Origin: a virus
Lineage: Duplodnaviria; Caudoviricetes
Direction: 5' to 3' (one strand)
Virus record (IMG/VR): IMGVR_UViG_2898571807_000002
Coordinates: 36,977-100,976 of that record
Length of the DNA: 64,000 bases
The position numbers and the translations under genes are program-made. Positions 2,279 to 61,757 of this stretch are shown here, one piece after another (position 1 is the first letter of the stretch; every line of letters starts with the position of its first letter). The notes under the pieces were generated by a model. It searched no databases and was not told the DNA's origin. It worked only from the letters and a program-made list of their open reading frames with translations.

Positions 2279-2319
2279 GGGACAGGCTCCTTTCAGGGCA
2301 GGGGCGCATACTGGACGGC

Positions 2320-3516: not shown

Positions 3517-3526
3517 CAGGCGCCCA

Positions 3527-5013: not shown

Positions 5014-5044
5014 ACGTCCTCCCGTCGAGGGGCACAATGGTGGA

Positions 5045-5362: not shown

Positions 5363-5369
5363 CCCGCGC

Positions 5370-7504: not shown

Positions 7505-7521
7505 TTACAGGCCCCCGTCCC

Positions 7522-13125: not shown

Positions 13126-13164
13126 CCTCCTCCGCGATCCAGAAGGGTGGGGCGGCGTAGGCGG

Positions 13165-14611: not shown

Positions 14612-14703
14612 GAAAGGCTCCCCTTCACATGCGAAAACCCCGCCCAGCAGGACGGGGTCGGAGGTTCAGTGCTTGTCGTTGCGGGCCTGACGGCCGCGGC
14701 GGG

Positions 14704-15416: not shown

Positions 15417-15428
15417 GCCCCCTCTCGG

Positions 15429-15770: not shown

Positions 15771-15771
15771 G

Positions 15772-16194
15772 TCAGTACCACCCGTCGCCGGGGCCGAGGT
15801 CTTCCCACACTCCGCGCGGGTCGGGTTCGTCGCCCCACGTGACCGGCCACGTCACCGTCGGGTCCGCGTCCGCAGGTGTCGGGTCGACGGTGAATGCTCC
15901 ACCGCGTCCGGCGAGGCGCTGGAGGGTGCGGCGTTCGTCGCGGGTCATGTACAGGCCCGCCTGGGGCCTTTGCACACTGATCGGGCCGACGGTCTCGTAG
16001 GCGATGCCCTGCGGGTTGGCGTAGGCGCGGCCGGCGACCGCCAGCACCACCGCTGACGCCGCGTCCGGTAGCGGCTTGACGATCGACTCGGCCAGCAGCA
16101 CCGCCTGTTCGATCATCAGGTTGGCGCGGGCCTGGTCGATCTCGGACATGTTGAGGTAGACGCGGAGCTGCTCCGCGTCCACGGCTAGGGCCAC
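15772..16194 (-). CDS. Head-tail connector
   Basis: VVLAVAGRAYANPQG...ETVGP...LYMTRDE motif. Confidence 0.8.
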   Translation of the reverse strand: MALAVDAEQLRVYLNMSEIDQARANLMIEQAVLLAESIVKPLPDAASAVVLAVAGRAYANPQGIAYETVGPISVQRPQAGLYMTRDERRTLQRLAGRGGAFTVDPTPADADPTVTWPVTWGDEPDPRGVWEDLGPGDGWY

Positions 16195-16214
16195 GGCGAT
16201 GCACCTCGCTCAGG

Positions 16215-17351: not shown

Positions 17352-18304
17352 GAGGTGACGCCCGCGCTGGTGTACTTCACGAACGCCTGCGCGTCACCCA
17401 TCACGAAGCCGTAGAACGCCTCCGCGAGCAGCAGCACCAGGTTCTCCTGGAAGGCACTGTGCACGCCGCCTTCCTCATCGATGTACGTCGCCTCCGCGGA
17501 GATCCGGATGGTGATGTCCATGCCCACGCCGTACGCGGCCTGCGACCAGTCACCGCCCAGGGCCCGCAGACCCGAGTCCGTGGAGGTGGACTGTCGGCGC
17601 TGCTTGCCGGACACGCCACGCGAGTACGCCAGCGGCTCACCGATGAGGGTGCCGGCGTTCGCCATGTTCGTGCCGGGCGTGGTGGTGTCGACCAGGATCG
17701 GCCGGCCCGTGGTGTCGGTGGCGAGCAGCAGCTTCGGCTTCAGCCGCGGGTCCGCGACGGTGCCGGTGAAGTCCCAGTCGTCGTCGACGACCAGGTCCAT
17801 GCCGTTCACCAGGTCCGCCCACAGACCGCCGTTGGCCTGGGAGGCGGTGCCGAGCTCGATCGCGTTGGTGGTCGCGGTGAGGTGCTCGGCGAACGGGCCC
17901 GCAGCGCCCTTCATCGACTTGCCGTGGATCGCGGCGTGGTCGAACGCCCGCGCGAACGCCGTCGGCAGGTCCCGCTGCAACTGCGTCCACAGGCCACCGG
18001 CGTTGGTCTTCACGACCTCTTCCGACACCGGAATCAGCACGGCGATCTTCTTCGGCGACATCTGCTTGACGTCGATACCGCCCGAGGACAGCGGCTTGCG
18101 GGCACCCGACCCGACCCAGTCTGCGGTCGGGACGTCCAGCGGGATCGGGATGGAGGTGTTCGCGTCGATCGACAGCGGCGCACGCTGCGCCAGCGACATG
18201 ATCGCGCTCTGTTCCACCGACTTTTCGAAGATCGGGCCCGCGAGCGTCCGCGGGAGGAGATTGTCGTTGACATCCGACAGGAGGATCGGGTCGGTGGTGG
18301 CCAC
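17348..18304 (-). CDS. Major capsid protein (HK97 fold)
   Basis: PKKIAVLIPVSEE...AFARAFDHAAIHG...GDWSQ...FQENLVLLLAE. Confidence 0.93.
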   Translation of the reverse strand: MATTDPILLSDVNDNLLPRTLAGPIFEKSVEQSAIMSLAQRAPLSIDANTSIPIPLDVPTADWVGSGARKPLSSGGIDVKQMSPKKIAVLIPVSEEVVKTNAGGLWTQLQRDLPTAFARAFDHAAIHGKSMKGAAGPFAEHLTATTNAIELGTASQANGGLWADLVNGMDLVVDDDWDFTGTVADPRLKPKLLLATDTTGRPILVDTTTPGTNMANAGTLIGEPLAYSRGVSGKQRRQSTSTDSGLRALGGDWSQAAYGVGMDITIRISAEATYIDEEGGVHSAFQENLVLLLAEAFYGFVMGDAQAFVKYTSAGVTS

Positions 18305-22705: not shown

Positions 22706-24387
22706 GCCAGCACCACCGCCCTGCCCTTGCCGCGCCGGCCGATGCCCTTGCTCACCGCGTCGATACGCGCCTGCCACGCGAGTGTCGCCGCGACCGCAGC
22801 GTCGATCTTCCGCCGCGAATCCGGGTGCTCCTTGGCGATCTGCAAACCGGCGCGGGACGGGCGCCGGCGCGCATTCAGCACATGCCGCGTCAACGTGAAC
22901 GACCCGTCATGGGTGAGCTCACCGTTGATCACCGCCGCGTGGAACTGCTCCAACGCCCGCACGACCGCCTGCGGACGGTTCATCCACCACTCGATCGGGT
23001 GCGCCTGCGAAGACCGGACCCGCATCCGACGCCCGTAGGCGTACTCCCACTCCGCCACGAACGACCGCCAGTCCGCGGCAGGATCCGCGTAGAACCCGAC
23101 GACCTTGTACCTCTGGAACGCCGACCGGACCGCCGCCTCGACCTCCGCGGTCGGCACCCACCAGTCCTTGCCCGCCGGACCGTTCGGCTGCTCCCACACC
23201 GCGACCTCGAACAGAAACCCGTCCGACACCCGGCACCCGATCAGCGCGGTCGCATCAGCCACGCCCCGGTTGCGGTGCTTGGACCCGTCGAACCCCAGCG
23301 TGATCCGATCCCCCGGCGCCACCGTCTTCGACGGGTCCGCGCAACCCGCCCACTCGTGCGGCGCCAGCCAAGCATCCGTCGCGCCGGTCTGCGCGTTCAG
23401 GAAATAGCGCCGCGAATCCACCGGGTTCTTGCGGGTGTCGTAGAACTCGTCGACGATCCCGTCGAAGTCGTTCCACTCGATCGCCTCACCGAACGCCTCA
23501 AGAATCGCCGCCCGCAACTGATCCTCAGCCGACAAGTCCTCGCACTCACCCCACCGGTGGTCATACAGCAGCCGGGCCCGCCGCGACCGTCCCTCCTGAA
23601 TGTGCTCGGCCAGTTGGAACGTCGCCTCCGCGGTCGACTCCTCACCGGCGGCGAACATCGTGGTGGTCTCCAAGAACCACGTGCCCGCGCCCTTCTTCCG
23701 CTTCCGCAGGTTCCGGGTGACCGTGTCGTACATCCGCCGCAACTCCGGCTGGTTGTACAGGTGCGTCTCGTCGAACACCACGAACGTCTCCAGGCCGCCG
23801 TCCTTCGACGCCGACGACGCCGTCGACGGACGAATCTCCCCGCCCCCCGGCAGATAGATCCGCGTCAAGCCCGCGTCCATGCCCGGGATGTGCGACAGCA
23901 GCGCGTCTCCGTCGGTGAGGTTGAAGAACACCGTGTCGTAGACGTTGCCGGTCTGGCCCTCCTCAGTGGCCATGCACCGGATGAACGGGGACGTGACATG
24001 GCGACCCATCGGCTCACCCGGCTCGTACACATACCGGAACCCCAACCCCCACGGGTCCTCGTACACCTCACCGCCGGACGCCCAGCCCGCGAACCGGCAC
24101 GGCCCCAACGCCTCGAACACAGCGAGCCGACCACCGAGCCCCGACTTGTCGCAGCCCTTCGGCCGCGAGAAAAACGCCGAGTCATACAACCGCTGCGTGT
24201 TCTCCGGCTCGTCGCCAATCGCGTAGCAGTCGACGATGAAGCCCGTGAGCTCATCACCGTGGCTGACCGGCTGGCCCTGCACGTCGCCCCGGCCGTGGAC
24301 GACGAAGTACTCCATCCACACCGTCGCCAGCCACCCCAACGACCGGTGACGGTCATGCCCGGGGGCCCGGACCAGCGTGCGCGGCAT
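22702..24387 (-). CDS. Terminase large subunit
   Basis: SRPKGCDKS Walker A variant, VVFDETH Walker B, LGFDGS nuclease motif, KIDAAVA. Confidence 0.95.
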   Translation of the reverse strand: MPRTLVRAPGHDRHRSLGWLATVWMEYFVVHGRGDVQGQPVSHGDELTGFIVDCYAIGDEPENTQRLYDSAFFSRPKGCDKSGLGGRLAVFEALGPCRFAGWASGGEVYEDPWGLGFRYVYEPGEPMGRHVTSPFIRCMATEEGQTGNVYDTVFFNLTDGDALLSHIPGMDAGLTRIYLPGGGEIRPSTASSASKDGGLETFVVFDETHLYNQPELRRMYDTVTRNLRKRKKGAGTWFLETTTMFAAGEESTAEATFQLAEHIQEGRSRRARLLYDHRWGECEDLSAEDQLRAAILEAFGEAIEWNDFDGIVDEFYDTRKNPVDSRRYFLNAQTGATDAWLAPHEWAGCADPSKTVAPGDRITLGFDGSKHRNRGVADATALIGCRVSDGFLFEVAVWEQPNGPAGKDWWVPTAEVEAAVRSAFQRYKVVGFYADPAADWRSFVAEWEYAYGRRMRVRSSQAHPIEWWMNRPQAVVRALEQFHAAVINGELTHDGSFTLTRHVLNARRRPSRAGLQIAKEHPDSRRKIDAAVAATLAWQARIDAVSKGIGRRGKGRAVVLA

Positions 24388-24839
24388 CAGCCCGACAGCC
24401 GAGCCCGCCGCGACGAAATGTCGGTCACCGACCCGCCATCAACTGGCGCATCCGGCCCCGGCTCCGCCGGCGTAGGCAGCACCTCCATCCGCAAGCGCAG
24501 CCGATCCTCCGGCGTCGCCCCGAACTTCGCCGCCCGCAACCTCAACTCCGACGCGAACTCCCACCGGCCCTTCGTCCACATCACGTGATGCATCAGCGCC
24601 GTATCAACCAGAAAGTCCCAGTCAGTCGCCGTGAACGTCTGCGCCTGCGGCGACCGCCGCCACGTCTCCCACCACATCACCGTCCGCGGATGCCACGACT
24701 CCCCATCGGGCAGCACACCCTCCGGCAGGTCAGCACCGCGAACCACACCATCGACCGCGAGCTCCGTCATCGGCTTCGGGTCCGCGTTGCGCCGCCGGCG
24801 CTTCGCCGGGTCCTTCGGAGCAGGCCCGTGTCCAGCCAC
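24387..24839 (-). CDS. Terminase small subunit
   Basis: GPAPKDP...WWETWRRSPQA...ASELRLRAAKFGATPEDRLRLR; directly upstream of TerL. Confidence 0.9.
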   Translation of the reverse strand: MAGHGPAPKDPAKRRRRNADPKPMTELAVDGVVRGADLPEGVLPDGESWHPRTVMWWETWRRSPQAQTFTATDWDFLVDTALMHHVMWTKGRWEFASELRLRAAKFGATPEDRLRLRMEVLPTPAEPGPDAPVDGGSVTDISSRRARLSG

Positions 24840-24899
24840 AGAGAGTCACCACCCCTCGGGCAACGCAAGATCATCAAGGGGCCCCAGACCTGTACGCAC

Positions 24900-25130
24900 A
24901 GGCTGCGGCTACATGGGGCCGGGCGGGGTTCCGGCGGGGAGGGGGCTACCGCCCCAGGGTGTCAAGGCTCTGACCTGCCGTTATGCGGGCTTTGGCGCTC
25001 TGACCTGCAATAACTGGTCGTGTGACTCTGTGTGACCGACTCTGGATCATGGTCGATGCTGCTGATCAGCGATCTTGAGCGTCGAAGATCGATCATGCTT
25101 TGCGGTCAGTCGATCAGGTGTCGATCACGG
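24900..25130. other. Putative packaging/terminus (cos/pac) region
   Basis: Non-coding gap upstream of terS; G-run GGGGAGGGGGCTACCGCCCC; 12-bp direct repeat GCTCTGACCTGC (24967, 24997); GATC cluster. Confidence 0.45.
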
Positions 25131-25259
25131 TCGTCGATGGGCGTCGAGGCGACCTGTGCCCTGCGTGGCAGGCACACCGTGCCCTGGCTGGGGTGGAGGT
25201 ACGGGTGGGGGTGGGGCTGGGGCTGGGGTGCGGTTGGCCTCACGGTCCGAGGTGGCACG

Positions 25260-25444
25260 TCAGGCCTTCTTCCTCATGCCCTTGCGGGTTGGGAGCCTTC
25301 GGTATCGGACACCCTTGCCGCCTGGCGTGGCGTGTGCATGCTTCCTAGCCCAAGACTTGTGAGTGGCGAAGGCCCATCTCCACTGGATAACTGAGCCTTG
25401 CTGCGGAAGCCGTGATACTTGCCGCCGCGCTTGGCCACTGTCAT
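25260..25444 (-). pseudogene. Small basic phage protein disrupted by an 8-nt insertion
   Basis: GGAGGTG RBS; removing TTATCCAG (25383-25390) gives MTVAKRGGKYHGFRSKAQWRWAFATHKSWARKHAHATPGGKGVRYRRLPTRKGMRKKA*. Confidence 0.6.
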
Positions 25445-25456
25445 CACCTCCTGTGG

Positions 25457-25711
25457 TCAGCAGGCTGGGAGCGCCTGCACCAGGACACCTGCGATGCCTG
25501 TGGCGATGACGAACTCCACGCCTGGGAACGAGTCGCGTAGCCCTGCGAGCATCGCCTTGCGGTCGTCGTCGGATGGTTCATCGGCGATGGCGAGGAGGAC
25601 ACGGTCTCCGGGGCGGAGCACGATCATCGGGGGCTGGGTGTCGGAGCGGAGGACCTGCTCGGGCTCGAAAACCCCGAACGTGACGTCGTCGGGGTTGGGG
25701 GGTTCGGTCAC
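25457..25711 (-). CDS. Hypothetical protein
   Basis: Coupled ORF (GTGA overlap with the upstream gene). Confidence 0.6.
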   Translation of the reverse strand: MTEPPNPDDVTFGVFEPEQVLRSDTQPPMIVLRPGDRVLLAIADEPSDDDRKAMLAGLRDSFPGVEFVIATGIAGVLVQALPAC

Positions 25712-25959
25712 TTCCGCTTGCCGTTGCCCTTGCGCTTCCGGCCGGCCGCGGACATGGCGCCCATCTTCTTCGCCCCGTACTTCTTGCGGCCCACGCTCGC
25801 GGCGACGGCGTTCGGGTCGCGGGCACCGGACTTGGCGGCCGAGGCGGCGACCTGCTTGAACCGCTTCCCGGAGCCGAGCTTGGGGGCCTTGCCCTTCGTA
25901 CCGCCGCTCTTGGACTTGCCGCTGCTGGACTTCTTCGCTGCCACCGTGGTCACCTCCAA
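25708..25959 (-). CDS. Small Lys-rich basic protein
   Basis: KLGSGKRFKQ...ARDPNAVAASVGRKKYG; GGAGGTG upstream of a probable internal start. Confidence 0.65.
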   Translation of the reverse strand: MEVTTVAAKKSSSGKSKSGGTKGKAPKLGSGKRFKQVAASAAKSGARDPNAVAASVGRKKYGAKKMGAMSAAGRKRKGNGKRK

Positions 25960-25996
25960 CTTCAGCGCTGGTCTGGCGGCCGGTTGGCCCCTGCGG

Positions 25997-26581
25997 TCAG
26001 GCGCTCTTGAGCCAGGCCCAAACCTTGCCGTTGCGAATTTGTCTTATCAGAGACTCGCTAACCCCGTACCGATCGGCCAGGAGGGCATGTGGTGCCGATG
26101 ATGCGCGGATCTCAAGGACATCGGCCTCCTGGAGCTTCGCGCCAGGGTTGTCGGATCCGAGGTCTGTCCGCGACTCAAAGCGGCGGGAGTTACATCGAAG
26201 GCACGTCGGAACGAGGTTCGTTGGTGTGTTGTTACTTCGATCCCAATCCAGGTGATCGGCCGTCAGGGTGCCGTCTTCCCACGACACCATCCGCTCACAC
26301 CAATGACAGGCGTGCGTCCCGGGACCAATGGCGTCGTACAGAACCGCTCGGTGAACATAGACGTAACCCCGCTTGTTGCTGAGCGGGTGGTTCACGACCA
26401 TCTTCCTGATGTAGCCGTCTGGACGGAGATTGCCCTGCCCGTTCGGCCTGTGCCGGAGTTCCAACCCGCCAGGGTCTCCGTGCTTCTTCCAACGCCTCAC
26501 ATGAAGGGAGCACCATCCATGCGAATCGTGAGGGCGAACGCAGCCCTCAACGCCACAGACACGTTTAGGCTTGTTTGGCAC
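25997..26581 (-). CDS. Free-standing HNH homing endonuclease (Zn finger, HNH, C-terminal HTH)
   Basis: CGVEGC...GWCSLH; YVYVHR; DHLDWDRSNNTPTNLVPTCLRCN; NPGAKL...LADRYGVSESLIRQIRNGKVW; CATAAT -10 box 6 nt before the GTG. Confidence 0.85.
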   Translation of the reverse strand: MPNKPKRVCGVEGCVRPHDSHGWCSLHVRRWKKHGDPGGLELRHRPNGQGNLRPDGYIRKMVVNHPLSNKRGYVYVHRAVLYDAIGPGTHACHWCERMVSWEDGTLTADHLDWDRSNNTPTNLVPTCLRCNSRRFESRTDLGSDNPGAKLQEADVLEIRASSAPHALLADRYGVSESLIRQIRNGKVWAWLKSA

Positions 26582-26616
26582 ATTCTAATTATGGCAGACA
26601 AATTGCCTATCGTTGG

Positions 26617-26919
26617 CTATCTGACAATGCCTGGGTGAGCTTCCGCTGGTCTAGTGCGCTTCGGCTTGCGGGCCTGGGCTGCGCGTCCGCCCTCGGCCGA
26701 TGATTTGGTCTGGTGGCAGTCGAAGCAGATCGCTGCGAGGTTGGCGTCACTGTCGTCGCCGCCTGCTGCGCTGTTGGCGACGTGGTCGACGTGTGTGGCG
26801 TGGTTGCCGCACTTGTAGCAGGTGTGGTTGTCGCGGGTGAGGATCCGGCGTCGGATCTTGTCCCATCCAGTGGGCAGTGTCGCTTTCCGGGTGCTGGTCT
26901 TCCACTGCCCGTTCGGCAT
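26617..26919 (-). CDS. Packaging-associated HNH endonuclease (gp74-like)
   Basis: RDNHTCYKC...VDHV...NLAAICFDCHQTKS. Confidence 0.85.
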   Translation of the reverse strand: MPNGQWKTSTRKATLPTGWDKIRRRILTRDNHTCYKCGNHATHVDHVANSAAGGDDSDANLAAICFDCHQTKSSAEGGRAAQARKPKRTRPAEAHPGIVR

Positions 26920-26944
26920 CAGGCACCACCCGCCAAGATCGCCG

Positions 26945-27655
26945 TTACCCGCGGGTGGCGACTGCTGACTTGTCGCAGGTCACAGGCTCGGAGGTCAGGG
27001 CACGGATCGTGTCGACATCGCCCGCGTCACCGGCTGCGAGGTACCGCTGGTAGCGGGCGACGGCTGCGTCGTACGCCGGGCCCGACTTCGGTGGGCTGTC
27101 GTGGTGCAGCGCGTACACGCGGCCTTCGTGGCGGACGGGTTCCGCACCGAGTAGAAGCCGGTGGCTGATAAGCCATGCGACGTCTTCGGGCGCCCAGCCA
27201 CGGAAGTGCTCGTCTTGCCCGCCGCACGCCCACCAGGTGGCCGGGGTGGTGACGTACACACCCGACGTGGCAGCGAGGACGACGAGGTGTGCGCAGCGTT
27301 CGAGCGGGATGCCGTCCAGGAGTTGGTCTGTGCCGTCGCGGCGGAGAGAACGGTACTGGTCGTAGGGCAAGTGGACTCGGGTGTCGCCTTCCGCGTCGTG
27401 GATCGCGGCGAGGAGCGGCTCACGCTCGGGGAGAGTGTCCGCGTCGGCGAGAACCGCGACGTCGTACCCGCCGACCTCAGCAGTGCGGACGGCCTTGTTG
27501 CGGCACGCGGCGAGGCAGAACGGCTCGTGGTCGGTGTCAACGTCGATCACGTCGGCGTCCGGGAGCAGGTCCCGGTACCGCTGGACCGTCAGATCATGGG
27601 CGTACACGCGGTGAGGCTGAGAACGCCAAGGGATGCCGACGAGGACGCGGGTCAT
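26945..27655 (-). CDS. GT-A (GT2/GT7C-like) glycosyltransferase
   Basis: IPWR...CRNKAV...DADT...GGQDEHFRGWAPED...ALHH. Confidence 0.85.
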   Translation of the reverse strand: MTRVLVGIPWRSQPHRVYAHDLTVQRYRDLLPDADVIDVDTDHEPFCLAACRNKAVRTAEVGGYDVAVLADADTLPEREPLLAAIHDAEGDTRVHLPYDQYRSLRRDGTDQLLDGIPLERCAHLVVLAATSGVYVTTPATWWACGGQDEHFRGWAPEDVAWLISHRLLLGAEPVRHEGRVYALHHDSPPKSGPAYDAAVARYQRYLAAGDAGDVDTIRALTSEPVTCDKSAVATRG

Positions 27656-48292: not shown

Positions 48293-48368
48293 GGTCCAAG
48301 CCATGCCAAGCCACTCCGGACCAGGCCGAACCGCAGCCAGCCACTGCCATGCCATTCCGGCCCGGCCG
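48293..48368 (-). repeat. Orphan GGY-NN pentamer tract downstream of the accessory gene
   Basis: ...GGTTC GGCCT GGTCC GGAGT GGCTT GGCAT GGCTT GGACC. Confidence 0.75.
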
Positions 48369-48382: not shown

Positions 48383-48937
48383 TTATGCGGCCGGGTTCGA
48401 CGGCGCCGTGACCCCGTGGCGCTCCAGGAGTTCGGCCAGCCGGTCGACGCGCTCGGAGATCTCCGCGACGTCCGCCGAGGTGTCCCGGCGGAGCGCCTTG
48501 ATCTCGGCCTGCCGCTGCTCGTCCCGGGCCTCCAACCGACGGATCATGTCGGCGTGCTGACGGAGGCTCATCTCCAGCCCGTCGATCCGCTTCCGCTCCT
48601 CCGGGGTGAGCTTCGACCGGTCCGCGCTGGCGGCCTTGGAGACGGCCTTGCGCATCTGCTTCCGGGACCGGCGGTGGTGTCCGACCGCGAGACGCTCGTG
48701 CTCGTTCGCGGCGGCGATCCTGTACCCGGAACCGCGGACCGTGGCGAGCGTCCGGTGGTCGCACTTCTCCAGCTCGCTGATGCACCGGTAGACGGGCGAC
48801 CGGTCGTCGCGGAAGTCGCGGCCGAGGATCTCGTCCAGGTCGTCGTACGTCAGCACGGTCCCCTCATCGAGGGCCGACACGCGCTGGTAGATGAGCCGCC
48901 ACTCGGGCAGATCACCCTTGGGTTCGAACGGCTTCAC
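48383..48937 (-). CDS. Winged-helix plus coiled-coil accessory protein of the pentamer-array cassette
   Basis: GGAGG RBS before GTG 48937; LTYDDLDEILG...TVRGSGYRI wing motif; C-terminal coiled coil. Confidence 0.75.
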   Translation of the reverse strand: MKPFEPKGDLPEWRLIYQRVSALDEGTVLTYDDLDEILGRDFRDDRSPVYRCISELEKCDHRTLATVRGSGYRIAAANEHERLAVGHHRRSRKQMRKAVSKAASADRSKLTPEERKRIDGLEMSLRQHADMIRRLEARDEQRQAEIKALRRDTSADVAEISERVDRLAELLERHGVTAPSNPAA

Positions 48938-48957
48938 TGTTCCTCCCGATGGTCGTA

Positions 48958-49985
48958 GATCCCTGCCTCGCCTGGCCCGACCTCGCCATGCCTTGCTGAG
49001 CCCATCCGGGCCGTGCGGAGCCGTGCGTGGGCGCCACGGACCCGAACCGTGGTGTCTGCCGGTCGCCCTGAGTTCCCTGCCTCGCCTCGCCGAGCCCGGC
49101 CGCGCCAGACCGCGCCCGGCCTGGCCCCGCCAAGGACGTGGGCGCTCGGGCCTCGAACCCCAGTGGTTGCCGATCGCCCGTGAATCCCTGCCTTGCCGCG
49201 CCCATCCCGGCCTAGCCAGACGGAGCCCGGCATTTCCATGCCTCGCCTTGCCGAGCCTCACCCTGAGGAGAGGGCGGCGCGGGAGTCGAACCCGCGCTGC
49301 GACCGCGCGCCCTGCCTCACCACGCCGAGCCTTGCCCAACCAGGCGCTGCCCAGCCGAACCTTGCCCCGCCGTACAAGGCGGGCCGCGAGGAGTCGAACC
49401 TCACCGAAGACCGTCGGCCCTCCAAGCCCAATTGAGCCGCGCCTGGCCATGCACTGACCTGCCTGGCCATGCCAAACCCAGAACTGCCGCACCCGGCCGT
49501 GCCTTGTCGAAGCTGCCCGGAGGCAGGGGAAGGTCCGGGCCCGAAGCCCCCGACCAACCTCCGTCACCGGATCCGCGCCACACCTCGCCTGACCTCGCCT
49601 GGCCCGACAGTGCCCATCCGCTCCAGACCAGGCCTCGCCCCGATGAGCGGGTGCCGGGGGCTCGAACCCCGGGGCCTGCCTGTCACCCGTTCCTTGCCCG
49701 GGCTTGCCAGGGACTGCCGCGCCCAACCGAGCCATGCCGGAGCCAGCACTGCCGTTGCCCTGCCCAGACCATCCGGGGATGGCGGGAAGCCCCGGGACGT
49801 GCCCGGAGCCAGCCGCCGTCCCCGGAAGCTCGCCACGCCTTGCCGTGCGCTGCCGCGCCCGACCCAGGCTCGCCATGCCACGAGCAGGCGTTGTGTCGTC
49901 CGAGACGGGAGACGAAGAGGAGTCCATGCCGTGCCAAGGCATGCCAAGCCCGGCCAACCCTCGCCCCACCAGACCCCGCCTCGCC
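48958..49985 (-). ncRNA. Array of nine GGY-NN pentamer tracts separated by hairpins / tRNA-like T-arm elements (putative guide-RNA array)
   Basis: Tracts at 49921-49985, 49830-49879, 49689-49738, 49570-49639, 49424-49503, 49312-49371, 49183-49262, 49072-49131 and 48958-49022, each 10-16 pentamers in strict 5-nt register. Confidence 0.85.
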
Positions 49986-49989
49986 ATGA

Positions 49990-50568
49990 TCAGATCTCCT
50001 CGACCTCAGCCGCGAAGCGCCCGTACATCGACCTGAAATCGCCGAGACCTTCGAGTTCGCCAGCCAGGCGTGCGACCTCCTTGAACTCGTCCGGGTCGAT
50101 GGCCTTCGGGTCGATCACGATCTCTGCCTCGATCGCCCACTCCCGGAAGATCGGACGGCACCGGTCGACCTTGTTCCGCTGCACCGTCACGGGGCGGATG
50201 TCGACGTACTCCGACTCGCCGCCGCCCCACAGCCCGTCCACGGTCCGGGGGCCGTCGTAGATCAACGGGCACTGGAAGTCCGCGATGGACACGCCCCGCT
50301 CGACCTTCTTGCCGGCCTTGTTCAGCCGGGCCCCGCCGACGAGGGAACGGAAGAGGTTCTGGCCGGGGATGTACGGGCCGACCACGTCGTCGAAGTACAG
50401 GGACCCCTCGAACTCGACGCGGGCGATCTCCATGCGGTCCTCGTCGGTCTTGGTCCGCTTGGAGTTGAGCGCCTTCAGCCGCTTGGCGTACGGGTTGAGG
50501 GGCGAGGCCAACTGCACGTTGTGCAGCAGCAGAGGGCGAGTGCCCGTCGCCGTGAGCCGAACCTTCAT
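49990..50568 (-). CDS. Stand-alone RAMP/Cas7-like protein (putative RNA-guided effector)
   Basis: N-terminal strand VRLTATGTRPLLLHN, PYIPGQNLFRSL (compare RAMP PxIPGSSLKG), RCRPIFREW, C-terminal Gly-rich loop GLGDFRSMYGRF; AGGAGG RBS. Confidence 0.75.
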   Translation of the reverse strand: MKVRLTATGTRPLLLHNVQLASPLNPYAKRLKALNSKRTKTDEDRMEIARVEFEGSLYFDDVVGPYIPGQNLFRSLVGGARLNKAGKKVERGVSIADFQCPLIYDGPRTVDGLWGGGESEYVDIRPVTVQRNKVDRCRPIFREWAIEAEIVIDPKAIDPDEFKEVARLAGELEGLGDFRSMYGRFAAEVEEI

Positions 50569-50593: not shown

Positions 50594-50624
50594 CGGGACC
50601 CCGGACATTCCGGGGTCCCGTTTT
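50594..50624 (+). terminator. GC-rich hairpin with T-tail
   Basis: CGGGACCCCGG-ACATT-CCGGGGTCCCG followed by TTTT; 11-bp perfect stem. Confidence 0.6.
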
Positions 50625-50634: not shown

Positions 50635-50694
50635 GCTCCCTGCCGCGCCGAACCCGGGCAGGCCATGCCACTCCGCGCACCAGCCAGCACCGCC
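50635..50694 (-). repeat. Leader GGY-NN pentamer tract upstream of the RAMP-like gene
   Basis: GGAGT GGCAT GGCCT GCCCG GGTTC GGCGC GGCAG GGAGC. Confidence 0.7.
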
Positions 50695-50739
50695 CTGTCA
50701 TGCGACGTGCTTGTCCAGGGGTGACTCCGCAGACGGATC

Positions 50740-56905: not shown

Positions 56906-57874
56906 GCCGACACCACCTCGGCCAGCACCTTGTCCGGGATCGCCTGCGTCGACAGAGTGTCGTCGCCCACCGTGGGATCGGCTGCGGCCTCCTCGAACAC
57001 GGGCAGCGGCATCGTGTCGTCGAGTAGCAGCACCGCGGTGATGGTGAATGCGACGCTCGCGAACGCACCCGTCGTGGACACGGTCACGTGCGCGCCCTCG
57101 GCGACCTCGTCCACCGGGGCGGCGAGTACTCCGGCATACGCGGTGACGATGTCCCGTTGCCCGGCCTCGTCTGCGTCGAGCGCGTTCACCTCGCCTGCCA
57201 CGGCGTTGACACCGAACCGCCAATGGAGCTTGGCGCCGGGCAGGTGCGGATGCTGGCCGTGCAGGGCGCGCACCGCCTGCTCCGGCGTCGACGGCTGCTC
57301 GACCGGCGCGGCCGTTGGCGGAACCGGGGCGGCGGCGAGAGCGGGCACGGGGTCCGGGGACGTCCGCTGCGGGGCGAGCCGCACCTCAGCGAACGGATCC
57401 CGTCGCTCGAACCTGGCTTGCGCCCGCTCGACCAGCCGTCGCCACGACCGTCCGACCGGCGACCAGGCGGCCCGCGCACTCCGCCACACCAGCCGGGACG
57501 GGACGATGACGAGCGTCAGCCGCACCCGGCGGCGCCGCTGAACCCGGTGTCGGCCGCTCACTGGAGCACCTGCCCGACCTCGACCCGCGGCCACACATCC
57601 GGGTCTAGGAACGTGAACTCGCCGCCGCCGTCACCGTCGCGGAACTCGACGACCAGGCGGCCGTCCTCATCGGTCCGGCGGGCGGTAACCTTCCACGCCA
57701 CCTCTGAACCGTCGACGGGATGACGGACGATCTTGTCGCCGATCGCGACGGTGATCTGCGGGACGTCCACCGTCAGCGGCAGGTCCGTTTCGACGAGGCC
57801 GTTCAGCACGGTGCTCTCCTCTGCATCGATGGCGGGAGGCGCGGCAGGGACAGGGAGCGAAGGTTCGAGAGCGG

Positions 57875-58366
57875 TCACGCGGCAGCCCTCCCGACCGGCT
57901 CGATGGAGCCGTCGTGGCCGAGCAACACAGGCCCGTACCGCCAGTGCAGGACCGGGGTGTTCGCCGGGTCCTGGCCGGTCTTCAGGCGGTAGCCCGCCAC
58001 GTGGTCGGCGGAGTGTCGTCCCTCGACACGGCCGTGGCATTCGGTCGTGGCCGAGCCCAGCAGCGTGACGAGGTTCGCCGGAGAGTTGATCAGCGGGTCA
58101 GACGTGCCTCCGAGGCGTCGCGCAAGGCGATGCTGCAGGCTGTACTGCTGGCCGATGATCGTCGCGCCGCAGCAGAAGCAGGCCCAGTCGTCGCGTTCGA
58201 GGACGAGCTCACGTGTGGTGCGGTCCGGTCCCGTGTCCCGCGGCCGGGTCGGCTTCCCGGTCGCGGCGGCGCGCTTGGCGGACACCTCACGCAGCGGCAC
58301 CCGGCGGGCGAGAGGGGTCCTCGCGGTGAGCGGGGTGCGGCGCTGCAGCCGCCCGGCCCGCTTCAC
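57875..58366 (-). CDS. HNH-like endonuclease
   Basis: VLERDDWACFCCG...QHRLARRLGG...NLVTL...CHGRVE. Confidence 0.75.
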   Translation of the reverse strand: MKRAGRLQRRTPLTARTPLARRVPLREVSAKRAAATGKPTRPRDTGPDRTTRELVLERDDWACFCCGATIIGQQYSLQHRLARRLGGTSDPLINSPANLVTLLGSATTECHGRVEGRHSADHVAGYRLKTGQDPANTPVLHWRYGPVLLGHDGSIEPVGRAAA

Positions 58367-58544
58367 GACGCTTCCTCTCGGCGGGCCCGCTCGATCTGCG
58401 TCTCGTGGTTCGGGCACGAGTCCCCGCAGATCCGGCACGGGTCACCCGGCTTTTCGTCGGCGTAGCGGAGGTGCCGGCAGTCCGGGCAGCGGAGCGGCGC
58501 GTACGGGTCCGACGGGGAGGAGTACGCCGCGGCGTGGGTGCGGG

Positions 58545-59051
58545 TCATGACTCACCCGCCACGGGCCGGACCGGGAGGAGTTGCCGCCAGTCCACGCCAT
58601 CGACCGTTGGGAGGTCCTCCGCGTCGATGACGGTCAGGAGATCCTCGGCGCCGTCCTCTGGGTAGAACCGCTGCTGCGGTGTCGACGTCTCGAACCGGAT
58701 CCCGGGAACGACCTCGCCGTTCTCATCGACCGCGCAGCCGCGGGCCTGCATCTCGCCGAGCAGCTTCCGTTCGAACGCCGGCCGGACCTGCTCGACCTGT
58801 TCCACCTCCGTCGACCACAGCGCGGCGACGTGCTTGGTGAATGCGTCCCGGTCCGCAACGACGGGCTTCTCGACGGGCTCGGTCTTGGCGACCTTCCCAA
58901 GGCGTGCCTCACCGAGCCGGGCGGTGTTCTTGTCGCCGGGCTCCTGGTCGATGAACGGCTCGAACCTCTTCAGCGCGGCGGCGAGGCGGCGCTGCTGCAG
59001 CTTCAGCAGCGCGAACGCCAGCCGGGCTTCACGCGGCGACAGGGCGGTCAT
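58545..59051 (-). CDS. Hypothetical recombination-module protein
   Basis: VRPAFERKLL...VDENGEVVPGI; near the annealing protein. Confidence 0.6.
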   Translation of the reverse strand: MTALSPREARLAFALLKLQQRRLAAALKRFEPFIDQEPGDKNTARLGEARLGKVAKTEPVEKPVVADRDAFTKHVAALWSTEVEQVEQVRPAFERKLLGEMQARGCAVDENGEVVPGIRFETSTPQQRFYPEDGAEDLLTVIDAEDLPTVDGVDWRQLLPVRPVAGES

Positions 59052-59395
59052 GGTGTGATTCCCGATCCGGCGAGGGACGCCTCCGCGCGGGCCGTGGACG
59101 CCAACGTCCGACCCACGTCAATACGGGCGTGCAGCGCCTTGATGTGCTCTTTCTGGATGTGGACCGCGGACGCGGCCAGCGACCACTGCCGCCACTCGGA
59201 GTCGCATTCGGCGACGGCCTGCTGCTTGCGGTCCTCCACCGACCCGGAACTATCGCGAAAGATCCGGGAGAACTTGGTCTTGTAGGTAGCCTCGGCGTCG
59301 ACCGCGGTCGCTTCGAGTTCACCGAGACGGCGGACCGCGGCGTCCAGGTCGACACCGAGTTGGCCGAGCTGCTGGGCGATGACGGCAGGAAGCAT
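59048..59395 (-). CDS. Helical coiled-coil protein next to the annealing protein (possible recombination mediator)
   Basis: GSVEDRKQQA...IKALHARIDVGRTLAS. Confidence 0.55.
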   Translation of the reverse strand: MLPAVIAQQLGQLGVDLDAAVRRLGELEATAVDAEATYKTKFSRIFRDSSGSVEDRKQQAVAECDSEWRQWSLAASAVHIQKEHIKALHARIDVGRTLASTARAEASLAGSGITP

Positions 59396-60168
59396 CAGGC
59401 AGCCACCCCCGACAGTTCCGCGTGCCGCTGGGCCCCGACCGTGTACAGATGGTCGTACTGGGCTTGGCTGCACTGGCCAGTGGCTTTCTTCTCCTCGACC
59501 TCATTGGCGAGGGTCTCCAGTACGTCGAGGTCCCCGGCCCTCTTGATCCGGCCTTCGACATCGGTGAACCAGTCGGCGGCGCCATCACCGGGCGCCCCGC
59601 CGTCCAGGTCGCGGTCGATCTCGTCGTTGCCGAGCGACACCTGCTGCGGGACGCCGTCCTGGACGTCGGCTGCGGCGGGCTCTCCCTCCGGCACGACGAG
59701 AGTCCCCCTCACCAGAGCCTCGAGCTGACCTTTGTTGTAGAGCGAGAGGCCGAACTGGTCCCCGAGGTTGATCGCGGCGCGCTTCTTCGACAGCGACAGC
59801 GCGGACTTGTAGGCCAGGTCGTGTGCGTCCCCGCGGGTCTGGTTCTGCGCGGTCGCGGTCGACCCGTCCTCGAAGTGGCAGATCTCCTTGCCGTCCTGGT
59901 CCTTGATCGTCAACCGGATGAGGGCGCGGTAGCAGCAGTCCCACCGGCCGCTCGGCTCTCCCGTGTTGCGGTTGATGCGTTCCTGCTCGAACACGCACTC
60001 CACGGAGACGACGTCGGTGTCGAACGACCCGAACCCGAACATGCGGATCAGGTGGGCGGTGACGTCTTGCTGGGAGACGTGGGAGTGGCCTTTGCCGTCC
60101 CGGAGGACGCGGTTGCGGTTGATCGGGCGGAGGAGTTGCTCGACCTGCTGCCGGGAGAACGCGGTCAT
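59395..60168 (-). CDS. Rad52/Rad22-family single-strand annealing protein (Sak-like)
   Basis: SHVSQQDVTAHLIRMFGFG...AYKSALSLSKKRAAINLGDQFGLSLY. Confidence 0.85.
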   Translation of the reverse strand: MTAFSRQQVEQLLRPINRNRVLRDGKGHSHVSQQDVTAHLIRMFGFGSFDTDVVSVECVFEQERINRNTGEPSGRWDCCYRALIRLTIKDQDGKEICHFEDGSTATAQNQTRGDAHDLAYKSALSLSKKRAAINLGDQFGLSLYNKGQLEALVRGTLVVPEGEPAAADVQDGVPQQVSLGNDEIDRDLDGGAPGDGAADWFTDVEGRIKRAGDLDVLETLANEVEEKKATGQCSQAQYDHLYTVGAQRHAELSGVAA

Positions 60169-60692
60169 CGGGTGCCTCCTTGGAGTGCCTCGGCGACCTG
60201 GGGAAGGTGGTCGGGCGAAGAGGTGTCAGGGATGCTCGCGGTGGTGTCTGCGGGGGTGGTGTGGTCAGGGCCGTCCGGCCCTGGGACCGAGTCACCGTCA
60301 GGAGCGGAGTCCGGGTGTTCCGGGTCGTTCCACTCCGCGGCCGAGTCGACCGGGCACGGGTCGGTCCATGTGACGGTCAGGGCGCCACGGTGGCGGGGCG
60401 GGACCGGCCGTGCAGGCGCCTGCCGGTCCGCCATGGCCAGCGCCTCCCCCAGCACCGTGGCTACGCCGACGGCCCCGGCGGCGATGAGGAGTCCCGTGAT
60501 CATCGGGCCACCGCCTCAGCGGCACGCCAGCCGCGCCCCTCATCCACGACCAGCCGGGCGTCCTGGTTGCCGCAGAACGCCAGGGCGCGCAGCCACCAGC
60601 GCGCGTCCACCTCATCCGAGCGGACGTCCACGTGATCCGGGGACGGAGAACCCCCGAACTCCACACCCCACACCGGGGCAGACAGGACGGCC

Positions 60693-61757
60693 TCAGACAT
60701 CGCGGGTCGCCTCCTCACCGTCACCGGCGGTGGCGAGGACCTTGCGAAGGTCCTGGACCGCTGCGCAGAGCTGGCAAGTGACCATGTCCTCGAACGGCGC
60801 ATCTGGGCCCTTGCAGGCCCAGAACACGCAGGGCTGCTGCTCCAGCACCTCGATGGCGTCGCGAAGGGTCTTGATCGCTTCGGCCTTGAGCCCGGCGCGC
60901 TCGTTGGGCGCCTCTTCCTCGCCCCCGAGGGCGCGAAGCCTTCTGGCGACCCGCCGCATGGCGGCGTCCCAGCCGCGGTCCCAGCGGTCTTCCGGGGCGC
61001 AGTCGGGGCCCGGATCCAACTCCGAAGCGAAAGTGCGCACCTGTTGCGTGATGCGGTCCGCTTCGGCGCGTGCAGCGTCGCGGTCGACCCGCGCCTGCTC
61101 CGCGGCATGCTGGAGGCGTTGCATCGCGGCGATCAACTCGCCGTGCCGCGCCTGCTCCTCCACGAGGTCGGCGCGCGCCTTGTCCCGCTCGGTCTCGGCC
61201 CGCCGCGCCCGCTTGTCCGCCTCGGCCTTCTCACCGGCCAGCCACTCGCGGAACCGCTCGCAGTCGTCGAGGTCACACCGCTTGGCCAGCTCGGCGCGGA
61301 GCCGCTTGGCGTCCTGCTCCCATCCGTCTTCCAGCTCCTGGATGCGGGCCTCGGCCTCGGCGAGCTTCCCGGCGGTGGCGACCGCCTCCAGCCGAAACGT
61401 GTCCCGCTGGGCCTTGAGGGCGGCGAGCGCGGGCAGGAACTCGGCCTCGCCTCGCGGCTGGGCGTGACCGCACTCGTCGCAGCGCGCGTCTTGGTTGCCG
61501 GGCTCGTCGTCGTGATGCCAGAGGCCGCAGTTGGCGCACTTGAACGCGACGCCCGTGGCGTCGGTCAACTCGGCGCGGAGACGCGCCACCACGGCCAGCA
61601 GCGTGGGCACGTCCTCCGGACCCGGCGGGCCCCACTCACAGGAGTGGTCGCCCTTCTGCTGGACGTCACGGTGCACACCGGTGTGGCGCGGGCTGCGGTC
61701 ACAGTCGTGGTCGTGGATCAGGCACGGCATCCCACACCGCTGGCGCTCGTCGGTCAT
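60693..61757 (-). CDS. Coiled-coil/Zn-binding hypothetical protein
   Basis: DVPTLLAVVARLRAE (Ead-like), CxxC motifs. Confidence 0.55.
   Translation of the reverse strand: MTDERQRCGMPCLIHDHDCDRSPRHTGVHRDVQQKGDHSCEWGPPGPEDVPTLLAVVARLRAELTDATGVAFKCANCGLWHHDDEPGNQDARCDECGHAQPRGEAEFLPALAALKAQRDTFRLEAVATAGKLAEAEARIQELEDGWEQDAKRLRAELAKRCDLDDCERFREWLAGEKAEADKRARRAETERDKARADLVEEQARHGELIAAMQRLQHAAEQARVDRDAARAEADRITQQVRTFASELDPGPDCAPEDRWDRGWDAAMRRVARRLRALGGEEEAPNERAGLKAEAIKTLRDAIEVLEQQPCVFWACKGPDAPFEDMVTCQLCAAVQDLRKVLATAGDGEEATRDV

What the first reader, a model, noticed from the sequence alone, without database searches (positions are those of the whole stretch)
48958..49985. Each tract holds a different message in its NN positions (a non-contiguous guide code)
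Seen in sequence (minus strand), NN of each pentamer. T1 (49921-49985): GA GG CT GG GA TT CG TT AT TT AC AT CT. T2: AT GA TG CG GC AG AC AA GT GA. T3: AT TC TG GC AG CT AA CG AA AC. T4: GA CT CT GC TG AC CG CA GA CA GA GT GC TC. T5: AC CG GC AG TG TT AT CA AG AG AT CA GC TC TG TT. T6: GG AA TC TG AG CT TG AA TC GT GA AG. T7: GA TC AA GA AT AA CG TC CT TA CG TG GC AA AG TT. T8: GG CA CG GC CT GC CG TC GA GA AG AC. T9: TC AC CC TG TC AA AT GA CG CA GA AG TC. The 5-nt register holds even where the GGY is mutated (GCC, CGC, TGT, AAT), and no two tracts share an NN string. A slippage microsatellite would instead homogenise its units. Inference: each tract specifies about 20-30 nt of target, read either contiguously or with a skipped base (NNx). 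A 3-nt target period could skip codon wobble positions and resist synonymous escape. I could not find a target in this window by eye.
Basis: partly seen in the sequence, partly recalled or inferred. Interest (0 to 1): 0.9.

Follow-up and report, generated by a model that had tools for sequence, protein, structure and literature searches.

The report
Phage VIPR guide-RNA array
The nine five-base repeat tracts are guide RNAs of a VIPR system, a CRISPR-related phage weapon first described in 2026.

Summary
There are nine tracts of 10-16 GGY-NN pentamers on the minus strand (48958-49985). GG and Y are conserved, and the NN positions are close to maximum entropy.

The gene just upstream (49990-50568, minus strand) is a clear homolog of the SUSP1 Vipr protein (PDB 36pp, E 1.9e-31) and keeps its GGY-binding residues. 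VIPR preprints from 2026 show that vrRNAs made of GGY/NN repeats read double-stranded DNA through the NN bases, skipping one target base per repeat, usually the codon wobble base.

New for this locus:
- Tract T7 matches 11 consecutive codons (22 of 22 bases, in frame) in the most conserved block of a small gene. That gene belongs to a family of roughly 17-kb integrating phages found in Actinomadura genomes.
- Tract T6 matches 21 of 22 bases at the Walker A region of a prophage DnaC-like helicase loader.
- Reversed-pattern controls and the 0-nt and 2-nt skip versions of T7 gave no comparable hits.
- No self-targets were found.
- The other tested guides gave nothing above controls (T8 ambiguous); T3 was not run against the genus.
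- Five of the nine tails are tRNA-like minihelices, not the published pseudoknot.

This scan has already found VIPR arrays on other DNA. Verdict: a new member of a known kind.

The parts
50635..50695 (-). Leader pentamer tract upstream of vipr. About 8 clear units end in GGCAG GGAGC, followed by a stable hairpin at about 50595-50619. Probably a solo upstream vrRNA.
   Evidence: Sequence read. The hairpin folds at -31.8 kcal/mol, z -3.8. The sibling L004 has a tract in the same position.
49990..50568 (-). vipr gene, 192 aa: the RAMP/Cas7-like filament protein that binds the GGY motifs.
   Evidence: PDB 36pp_D (SUSP1 Vipr) matches at E 1.9e-31, residues 4-189 against 5-189. H17, K33, R39, R138, D177 and R179 are conserved, and W178 is replaced by F (compared). 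It hits phrog_4652 at E 6.6e-51, the same PHROG as wV8 gp096. No Pfam family matches.
49921..49985 (-). vrRNA tract T1: 12 guide units plus a terminal GGACT unit. The 3' flank is unstructured.
   Evidence: In the genus search the only hit has 3 mismatches, the same as the control.
49768..49879 (-). vrRNA T2: 10 units (49879-49830), followed by a long stable hairpin (49829-49768).
   Evidence: The hairpin folds at -50.3 kcal/mol, z -5.2. No target found with up to 2 mismatches.
49643..49767 (-). vrRNA T3: irregular units, then 10 units ending in GGAAC, followed by a tRNA-like minihelix tail (49690-49643).
   Evidence: The tail is 86-92% identical to stand-alone intergenic elements in Streptomyces phages.
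49505..49639 (-). vrRNA T4: 13 guide units plus GGATC, then a hairpin-rich tail that is not the canonical minihelix.
   Evidence: z -1.1. No target with up to 2 mismatches in the genus. The IMG/VR seed extensions are at chance level.
49375..49503 (-). vrRNA T5: 16 units, 4 of them degenerate, followed by a minihelix tail (49423-49375).
   Evidence: ARAGORN's tRNA-Ser(gga) call at 49378-49461 sits on this tail. No target found.
49267..49371 (-). vrRNA T6: 11 guide units, then the constant GGCAG GGCGC, then a minihelix tail (49313-49267). Candidate target: a prophage DnaC-like helicase loader.
   Evidence: The match is 21/22 bases at G730:C570:89827-89858, in frame as GKSWSLWKCVE, and every skipped base is G or C. 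The target protein hits phrog_50 at E 1.2e-21. Shuffled guides reach at most 17/22 on that contig.
49134..49262 (-). vrRNA T7: 14 guide units, then the constant GGCAG GGATT, then a minihelix tail (49181-49134). Candidate target: a conserved 118-aa gene of small integrating Actinomadura phages.
   Evidence: The match is 22/22 bases over 11 consecutive units at L269:5196-5227, in frame as EIKRSLYRCAK. It is 21/22 in G767 and 19/22 in G775, with 0 control hits. The matched block is the most conserved 11-residue window of 108 in the 37-member family.
49023..49131 (-). vrRNA T8: 10 guide units, then GGCAG GGAAC, then a minihelix tail (49070-49023).
   Evidence: Three 19/20 hits in the genus against 0 in the control, but they lie in unrelated contexts and my rough expectation is about 1 chance hit, so the result is ambiguous.
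48958..49022 (-). vrRNA T9: 11 guide units, then GGCAG GGATC. It has no tail and runs into the ribosome-binding site of the next gene.
   Evidence: The genus hits have 3 mismatches, are out of the wobble register and contain an in-frame stop, so I read them as chance.
48383..48946 (-). vap-like accessory gene, 187 aa: a weak winged-helix N-terminal half and a coiled-coil C-terminal half.
   Evidence: It hits phrog_5926 at E 4.9e-8. That is the PHROG of wV8 gp095, the gene directly after vipr in a Felixounavirus (E 7e-76). It is 42% identical (E 1e-40) to the gene in the same position in sibling L004. The Pfam Trans_reg_C match is only E 0.16. Direct BLASTP to wV8 gp095 is not significant.
48293..48367 (-). 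Trailing pentamer tract after the vap stop codon: about 14 units with two register slips, ending in GGACC.
   Evidence: No target found in the loci held locally. Not run against the genus.

Best explanation
The 1-kb 'non-coding' stretch is the guide-RNA (vrRNA) array of a type II-like VIPR system carried by an actinobacterial prophage. The layout on the minus strand is: leader vrRNA, vipr, nine vrRNAs, vap-like gene, trailing vrRNA.

Mechanism, as established in the literature for SUSP1 and P. fulva VIPR: Vipr protomers polymerise along each vrRNA, one protomer per pentamer. They bury G1, G2 and Y3 of each unit and present N4 and N5. The NN pairs bind double-stranded DNA two bases at a time, with one target base flipped out per repeat. 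Binding silences transcription of the target.

Shown here:
- The protein is a Vipr homolog that retains the GGY-contact residues.
- The tracts have the vrRNA anatomy.
- Two guides (T7 and T6) have near-perfect 1-nt-skip matches that are in frame, with the skipped base at the wobble position. The matches lie in conserved blocks of genes of other prophages in Actinomadura genomes. The prophage's own genome has neither a match nor a homolog of either target gene.

Inferred:
- The prophage uses the array to repress competing mobile elements in an Actinomadura-like host.
- The effective guide is the roughly 11 units directly 5' of a constant GGCAG-GGR handle. Both good matches stop exactly there, and T7's three 5'-most units do not match.
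- The tRNA-like minihelix tails (acceptor-like stem plus T-arm) mark or protect the 3' ends, probably through host tRNA-processing enzymes.
For: - Vipr homology and residues: read.
- The published code.
- Tract anatomy and statistics.
- Conserved synteny (vipr, array, vap) in sibling L004 (70% Vipr identity), with different NN strings.
- VIPR loci with the same tail type in G083 and in phages LittleE and MakoManhole.
- T7 target.
- T6 target.
- Skip-length controls for T7.
- No self-target at skips 0-3.
- No homolog of either target gene in the prophage's own genome.
- NN composition (GC 0.51 in a genome of GC 0.68; TA seen once in 112) fits codon positions 1-2 far better than any register that includes the wobble base.
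- Tail covariation (97% paired, 9 of 11 pairs with changes on both sides, score 0.60 against 0.155 in shuffles).
Against: - I have no expression or processing data.
- Five tested guides (T1, T2, T4, T5, T9) gave no hit above controls in IMG/VR seeds or in 104 Actinomadura-genus genomes; T8 is ambiguous and T3 was not run against the genus.
- About a quarter of the units deviate from GGY. Some have a purine at position 3, which the SUSP1 pocket excludes. Some tracts may therefore bind poorly or be decaying.
- T7 matches only 22 or 23 of 28-30 informative bases over the whole tract, which is just under or at the papers' 80% cut-off.
- The host is inferred only indirectly: a flanking GntR gene is 77% identical to one in Actinomadura oligospora, and the targets lie in that genus.
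- The significance of the T6 and T7 hits rests on one reversed-pattern control each plus my own rough probability estimates.
Confidence: 0.93

Rival explanations
1. The tracts are protein-binding decoy or sponge RNAs, like the (G/U)AG-N2-3 repeats bound by the TRAP ring. Only the GGY triplets would matter, and the NN positions would be meaningless spacers.
For: The 5-nt period with a constant triplet resembles TRAP sites; this is my own recollection and was my first guess. NN composition is statistically indistinguishable from uniform. Seven of the nine guides have no confident target.
Against: The neighbouring protein is a Vipr homolog, not a TRAP-like ring. T6 and T7 match conserved coding blocks in register with codons, far better than shuffled or reversed guides. 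TA dinucleotides are depleted, as expected for codon positions 1-2.
Confidence: 0.03
2. The region is coding. The 534-aa ORF 48383-49987(-) runs through the whole array, in frame with the downstream gene, and would encode an Arg/Gly-rich repeat protein.
For: The ORF is open for 1.6 kb.
Against: All three minus-strand frames are largely open here, as expected for G-rich DNA of about 70% GC. A 5-nt period cannot preserve a peptide repeat. The downstream gene has its own ribosome-binding site and GTG start at 48946, which the sibling L004 also uses. The tails co-vary as RNA helices, and the same elements are intergenic in other phages.
Confidence: 0.01
3. It is a genuine VIPR array, but the T6 and T7 'targets' are chance matches. 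The true targets would be unknown or extinct, and part of the array would be decaying.
For: Each guide was tested with only one control pattern. T8 shows that GC-rich guides give 19/20 hits by chance. The T7 seed also hit three tRNA genes in unrelated low-GC DNA. T7's 5' three units never match. Many units are degenerate.
Against: T7 hits the single most conserved 11-residue window of 108 in its target family. The match is in frame, and it occurs in three independent records from high-GC phage or prophage contexts. T6 is 21/22, in frame, with all skipped bases G or C, in a phage replication gene. My rough codon-based expectation for such hits in 104 genomes is below 0.001 for each guide; this is my own inference, not a tool result.
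Confidence: 0.12

Closest known systems
Type II VIPR systems (Escherichia phage SUSP1 and the Pseudomonas fulva prophage; bioRxiv 10.64898/2026.04.26.720920, 10.64898/2026.04.26.720927, 10.64898/2026.10.15.759431; PDB 36pp)
   Same: - The Vipr protein is homologous over its full length and keeps the GGY-contact residues.
- vrRNAs consist of 10-16 GGY/NN repeats with hypervariable NN.
- One vrRNA lies upstream and an array lies downstream of vipr.
- A small predicted DNA-binding accessory gene from the same PHROG is present.
- The system sits in a provirus.
- Targets follow the 1-nt skip rule in register with codons, lie in competing prophages, and none is in the prophage's own genome.
   Different: - The array sits between vipr and the vap-like gene rather than after both.
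- There are 9 guides in the array plus 2 flanking tracts, against four in SUSP1.
- Tails are tRNA-like acceptor/T-arm minihelices (5 of 9) or other hairpins, not the SUSP1 pseudoknot.
- A constant GGCAG-GGR unit pair precedes the tail.
- About a quarter of the units deviate from GGY.
- The host is a high-GC actinomycete.
- The three VIPR papers I searched never use the words tRNA or Actino.
VIPR loci of cultured actinophages: Mycobacterium phage LittleE gp34/gp33 and Gordonia phage MakoManhole gp78/gp77. Both are annotated only as hypothetical or DNA-binding proteins.
   Same: The Vipr proteins are 46-48% identical. vrRNA tracts flank the genes. The tails contain GGTTCGA T-loops inside an outer stem.
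   Different: The NN strings are different and there are fewer guides. In LittleE the cassette lies among tail genes. I found no published description of these loci as VIPR in the papers held here.
Class 1 CRISPR crRNA-Cas7 filaments
   Same: A RAMP protein polymerises on a guide RNA and flips out bases periodically. The guides are programmable and aimed at mobile elements.
   Different: There are no repeat-spacer units, no cas1/cas2 genes and no other cas genes. Three of every five guide bases are buried. The target is read 2 bases plus 1 skipped, not 5 plus 1.

Membership tests
VIPR system (type II-like) | A Vipr protein (minimal RAMP) is encoded next to the repeat tracts | tested here: met
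   The ORF 49990-50568(-) matches PDB 36pp_D 'SUSP1 Vipr protein' at E 1.9e-31, residues 4-189 against 5-189. It hits phrog_4652 at E 6.6e-51, the same PHROG as the Felixounavirus wV8 Vipr homolog.
VIPR system (type II-like) | The residues that hold G1, G2, Y3 and the DNA strands are conserved (SUSP1 H17, R138, D177, W178, R179, K33, R39, K82, K88) | tested here: met
   In the alignment these correspond to H16, R138, D177, F178 (aromatic), R179, K32, R38, R81 (basic) and K87. The residue roles come from 10.64898/2026.04.26.720927.
VIPR system (type II-like) | vrRNAs consist of 9-16 tandem GGY/NN units with conserved GGY and hypervariable NN | tested here: met
   There are nine tracts of 10-16 units. 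Entropy at positions 1-3 is 0.62, 0.44 and 1.17 bits, and at positions 4-5 it is 1.99 bits each. Sibling arrays carry different NN strings.
VIPR system (type II-like) | A conserved structured 3' tail follows each repeat tract (a pseudoknot in the SUSP1 clade) | tested here: inconclusive
   Five of the nine tracts end in a co-varying minihelix (97% paired, 9 of 11 pairs with changes on both sides). T2 has a long hairpin, T4 has other hairpins, and T1 and T9 have none. A tail is therefore present, but it has a different fold from the published one and is not uniform.
VIPR system (type II-like) | An adjacent vap accessory gene that is predicted to bind DNA in type II systems | tested here: met
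   The ORF 48383-48946(-) hits phrog_5926 (E 4.9e-8), the PHROG of the gene directly after vipr in wV8 (E 7e-76). It is conserved in sibling L004. The winged-helix signal is only weak (Pfam E 0.16). That wV8 gp095 is vap1 is my inference from its position.
VIPR system (type II-like) | Natural targets follow the 1-nt skip rule, lie in competing mobile elements, and none lies in the system's own genome | tested here: met
   T7 matches 22/22, 21/22 and 19/22 bases in three phage or prophage records, against 0 control hits. Its skip-0 version gives 0 hits, and its skip-2 version gives 0 hits against 3 for the control. T6 matches 21/22 in a prophage DnaC-like gene. The prophage's own genome has no match above shuffles at skips 0-3. 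The feature is met for 2 of 9 guides only.
VIPR system (type II-like) | vrRNAs are expressed as discrete ~100-nt RNAs that co-purify with Vipr | not testable with these tools
CRISPR array | Direct repeats of about 23-50 nt separated by unique spacers, with cas genes nearby | tested here: not met
   The only periodicity is 5 nt. Rfam reports no CRISPR direct-repeat family or any other family. The neighbours are vipr and a vap-like gene only.
tRNA genes | A full cloverleaf with D arm and anticodon arm that scores as tRNA | tested here: not met
   There is only one weak ARAGORN call, Ser(gga), on the T5 tail. The Rfam tRNA-Sec hits score 17-18 bits against a threshold of 47. The elements have an acceptor-like stem and a T-arm, joined by about 11 nt.

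The most novel reading that the evidence does not exclude
In the actinophage branch of VIPR, the guide RNAs end in tRNA-like acceptor/T-arm minihelices. These could recruit host tRNA enzymes (RNase P, RNase Z, CCA-adding enzyme) to cut and cap each guide. That would be a maturation route different from the published pseudoknot tails and hammerhead-interspersed arrays.

The same minihelix is scattered as stand-alone intergenic punctuation in Streptomyces phages that showed no Vipr match. There it could be a general RNA-processing signal, or a decoy that competes for Vipr nucleation.

In addition, the two target matches suggest a fixed guide of about 11 units, measured from a constant GGCAG-GGR handle.
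Probability: 0.35. Interest if true: 0.55.

Novelty: new member of a known kind. Interest (0 to 1): 0.38.

Why it matters
- It shows that the recently published VIPR code can be recognised from raw sequence alone.
- It extends VIPR to a large guide array (9 plus 2 tracts) in a high-GC actinobacterial prophage.
- The two candidate natural targets give concrete, testable examples of phage-against-phage silencing in actinomycetes. One is the most conserved block of a small gene in roughly 17-kb integrating phages. The other is the Walker A region of a DnaC-like loader.
- The tRNA-like tails, and the presence of the same cassette in Mycobacterium phage LittleE (host M. smegmatis), offer a tractable system for studying guide maturation.
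- The core idea, a non-contiguous NN code that skips wobble bases, is already published, so the finding itself is not a discovery.

Tried and rejected
**Readings rejected**
- A TRAP-like protein-binding repeat RNA was my first reading. I dropped it once the neighbouring gene matched Vipr.
- Rfam found no family in the 64-kb window at gathering thresholds, and only weak sub-threshold matches in 48500-50300 at E up to 10.
- I rejected the coding reading of the 534-aa ORF.

**Target searches**
- Own genome at skips 0-3: nothing above shuffles. One skip-3 value for T1 (20/26) exceeded 100 shuffles, but I treat it as a multiple-testing fluke.
- Cross-targeting between this array and the sibling contigs G403, G404 and the G083 locus, in both directions: none.
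- IMG/VR exact 9-NN seeds: T8 gave one seed-only hit in a low-GC phage, and T6, T7 and T9 gave none.
The best T1 hits are in phages of 30% GC.
- Three of the four metagenome hits for T7 are tRNA genes, which I read as chance.
- Genus scans: T9 hits are out of register, T1 equals its control, T8 is ambiguous, and T2, T4 and T5 gave none.
- No other guide hits within 20 kb of the T6, T7 or T8 sites.

**Host identification**
- Vipr had no close relative in the species-representative genomes and was found in only 1 of 401 sampled Actinomycetes genomes.
- Only the GntR/NUDIX part of the left flank matches Actinomadura oligospora, at 71% DNA identity.
- The T7 target protein has no relative in cultured phages or in IMG/VR by the pattern method.

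**Tools**
Full report
**1. The observation**

Reading the minus strand of 48700-50300 and laying it out in its best local 5-nt register gives nine tracts of 10-16 pentamers.

Over 119 units, position 1 is G in 90%, position 2 is G in 93%, and position 3 is C or T in 89%. Positions 4 and 5 are almost uniform, at 1.99 bits each, and all 16 dinucleotides occur.

GG at lag 5 occurs 91 times, against 32.8 +/- 5.8 in shuffles. The GGC autocorrelation is near zero except at multiples of 5.

The register persists through 29 degenerate units. No two tracts share more than three consecutive NN units. Across the 101-kb provirus record, such tracts occur only here and in two flanking tracts, at 50695-50635 and 48367-48293.

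**2. What it is**

Rfam finds nothing. ARAGORN makes one weak tRNA-Ser call.

Notes from earlier runs of this scan on other genomes pointed me to VIPR systems. I checked that lead myself. The preprints describe a minimal RAMP protein, Vipr, together with vrRNAs of 9-16 GGY/NN repeats followed by a structured tail. The NN bases pair with double-stranded DNA while one target base per repeat is skipped, usually the codon wobble base.

The ORF immediately upstream of the array (49990-50568, minus strand, 192 aa) matches the solved SUSP1 Vipr chain 36pp_D at E 1.9e-31 over residues 4-189. The residues that the structural paper names as holding G1, G2, Y3, the skipped base and the non-target strand are conserved or conservatively replaced (H16, K32, R38, R81, K87, R138, D177, F178, R179).

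The ORF downstream of the array (48383-48946) falls in phrog_5926. This is the PHROG of the gene that directly follows vipr in Felixounavirus wV8. It is 42% identical to the gene in the same position in a sibling locus.

That sibling is IMG/VR contig L004, with 70% Vipr identity. It has the same order: leader tract, vipr, tracts with tails, vap-like gene. Its NN strings are different.

Vipr homologs with flanking GGY/NN tracts also occur in an actinomycete genome (G083) and in the cultured phages LittleE (Mycobacterium) and MakoManhole (Gordonia). The locus is therefore a VIPR system of the SUSP1/P. fulva (type II) kind.

**3. Testing the guide code on this array**

*Self-targets.* The prophage's own genome has no match above NN-shuffled guides at skips of 0, 1, 2 or 3 bases. 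This agrees with the papers' finding of no self-targeting.

*IMG/VR.* Exact-seed scans gave nothing credible.

*T7.* A 10-unit seed from T7 in the metagenome collection returned four records. Three are tRNA genes in low-GC DNA and look like chance.

The fourth, L269, is a phage-like contig of 68% GC with a capsid-like protein, a packaging ATPase and an NlpC/P60 peptidase. There T7 matches 11 consecutive units, 22 of 22 bases. The match is exactly in frame with a 118-aa ORF, with NN at codon positions 1-2 and the skipped base at the wobble position. The matched residues read EIKRSLYRCAK.

The protein family has 37 members, on contigs of up to about 17.7 kb. One member is from Actinomadura violacea. 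The matched block is the most conserved 11-residue window of 108, and 26 of the 37 members are amino-acid-compatible with all 11 units. Shuffled T7 guides never reach the observed score on L269 (0 of 200).

I then scanned the 104 genomes of the genus that contains Actinomadura oligospora with the 11-unit pattern, allowing up to 3 mismatches. This gave two hits and none for the reversed-pattern control. G767 matches 21/22. G775 matches 19/22, on a contig of the same length as the A. violacea record.

The same guide written with no skip gave 0 hits. Written with a 2-nt skip it gave 0 hits, against 3 for its control.

In G767 the target gene sits in a small integrated element beside a host sigma-70 gene. 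The element carries a tyrosine integrase, a Prim-Pol and the same structural genes.

*T6.* In the same 104 genomes T6 gave one hit, with a single mismatch (21/22). It is in frame as GKSWSLWKCVE, and all ten skipped bases are G or C. It lies in a DnaC-like helicase loader (phrog_50, E 1.2e-21), next to a DnaB fragment at a prophage-like contig end.

*Own genome.* The prophage encodes no homolog of either target gene.

*Other guides.* T8 gave three 19/20 hits against none for its control. Their contexts are unrelated, and my rough expectation for this GC-rich pattern is about one chance hit, so I call it ambiguous. The T9 and T1 hits are at control level. T2, T4 and T5 gave nothing. T3 and the two flanking tracts were not run against the genus.

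**4. Details that come out of the matches (inference)**

- Both good matches end exactly at the unit before a conserved GGCAG-GG(A/C) pair. That pair also closes most tracts here and in the sibling. I read it as part of the constant handle, not of the guide.
- Both matches span 11 units counted from that handle. T7's three 5'-most units do not match any family member. This fits the reported 3'-to-5' assembly from the tail and suggests a guide of about 11 units.
- The T7 match runs through four non-canonical units (GGAAA, TGCCG, CGTCT, GGATG).
- NN composition has GC 0.51 in a genome of GC 0.68, and TA occurs once in 112 units. This fits codon positions 1-2 much better than any register that includes the wobble base, but it cannot be told apart from a uniform distribution.

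**5. Tails**

Five of the nine tracts (T3, T5, T6, T7, T8) are followed by a roughly 45-nt element. It has a 5-bp outer stem, about 11 nt with a conserved CGGCA core, and a 6-bp stem capped by a GTTCGAG T-loop.

I aligned 18 copies: 5 from this locus, 2 from the sibling, and 11 stand-alone intergenic copies in Streptomyces phages BroPlease and Endor1. In that alignment 97% of cells are paired, 9 of 11 pairs change on both sides, and the covariation score is 0.60. Shuffles give 0.155, and slid partners give at most 0.126.

T2 has a very stable long hairpin instead (z -5.2). T4 has other hairpins. T1 and T9 have no clear tail. The tails in LittleE and MakoManhole also carry GGTTCGA T-loops.

The three VIPR papers I searched do not contain the word tRNA. 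They describe a pseudoknot tail and hammerhead-interspersed arrays. Earlier follow-ups in this scan had already noted tRNA-like tails on other DNA, so this is not new to the scan.

**6. Mechanism and confidence**

Established in the literature: Vipr polymerises on GGY/NN repeats, NN pairs with DNA under a 1-nt skip, and binding silences transcription.

Shown here by homology and sequence: the protein, the RNA anatomy, the accessory gene, the proviral setting, the absence of self-targets, and two guides with codon-register targets in rival prophages.

Inferred: expression and processing of the RNAs, silencing of the small integrating phage and of the DnaC-bearing prophage, an Actinomadura-like host, the 11-unit ruler, and processing of the tails by tRNA enzymes.

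I put 0.93 on 'VIPR vrRNA array using the NNx code' and about 0.85 on at least one of the T6 and T7 targets being real.

**7. Novelty and verdict**

This locus is a new member. It is large, actinobacterial, has tRNA-like tails and has two plausible natural targets. Interest is moderate to low for the finding as stated. The tail biology and the cultured LittleE cassette are the parts most worth following.

Noticed in passing
L001 (Streptomyces phage BroPlease) 1803-1850, 2307-2354, 2845-2892, 4442-4489; L002 (phage Endor1), seven copies between 319 and 4630: The same acceptor/T-arm minihelix occurs as a stand-alone element after almost every small gene in the right arm of these phages. These copies have no pentamer tracts, and no Streptomyces phage is named among the Vipr tblastn hits. 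It may be a general tRNA-like punctuation or processing signal of actinophages, which VIPR arrays here also use.
   Followed up: partly
L295 (Mycobacterium phage LittleE, record 23698-27467) and L296 (Gordonia phage MakoManhole, record 57651-61405): Cultured phages carry unannotated VIPR cassettes: LittleE gp34/gp33 lies between tail genes, and MakoManhole has gp78/gp77. Each has several GGY/NN tracts whose tails contain GGTTCGA T-loops. LittleE grows on M. smegmatis mc2 155, so it is a tractable test system.
   Followed up: partly
window 49378-49461 (-): ARAGORN calls a tRNA-Ser(gga) here. The call is built from the last units of tract T5 plus its minihelix tail, and is almost certainly not a real tRNA gene.
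   Followed up: yes
L281 (G767:C1:2990001-3010000), about 2091-18000: A small integrated phage-like element lies next to a host sigma-70 gene. It carries a tyrosine integrase, a Prim-Pol, the 116-aa T7-target gene transcribed divergently from a compact structural module, and a packaging ATPase. Related contigs elsewhere reach about 17 kb. No family in the 'phages' collection matches the target protein.
   Followed up: partly
L268, L270, L271 (metagenome contigs): The T7 10-unit NNx seed exactly matches the antisense strand of the D-arm and anticodon stem of a tRNA gene in three low-GC contigs. I read this as chance, made visible by how abundant tRNA genes are, and did not examine it further.
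   Followed up: no
G000:C1:1-24500 (outside the window; L008, L009): The left 23 kb of the provirus record holds host-like genes. A GntR/UTRA regulator there is 77% identical to one in Actinomadura oligospora, and a NUDIX-like ORF is also present. A tyrosine integrase lies at 23378-24499. The record may include host flank or a second element, and the true prophage end may be near the integrase.
   Followed up: partly
L004 6060-6315: The sibling contig ends in a long, nearly perfect tandem repeat of a 10-nt unit (GGCCAGGTCR-like) inside an ORF. It is unrelated to the pentamer tracts.
   Followed up: no
window 49072-49081, 49183-49192, 49307-49316, 48958-48967, 50635-50644: Tracts T6-T9 and the leader all end in GGCAG followed by a GGA or GGC unit. 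Both credible target matches stop just before this pair, so it behaves as a constant handle or stop signal rather than as guide.
   Followed up: partly
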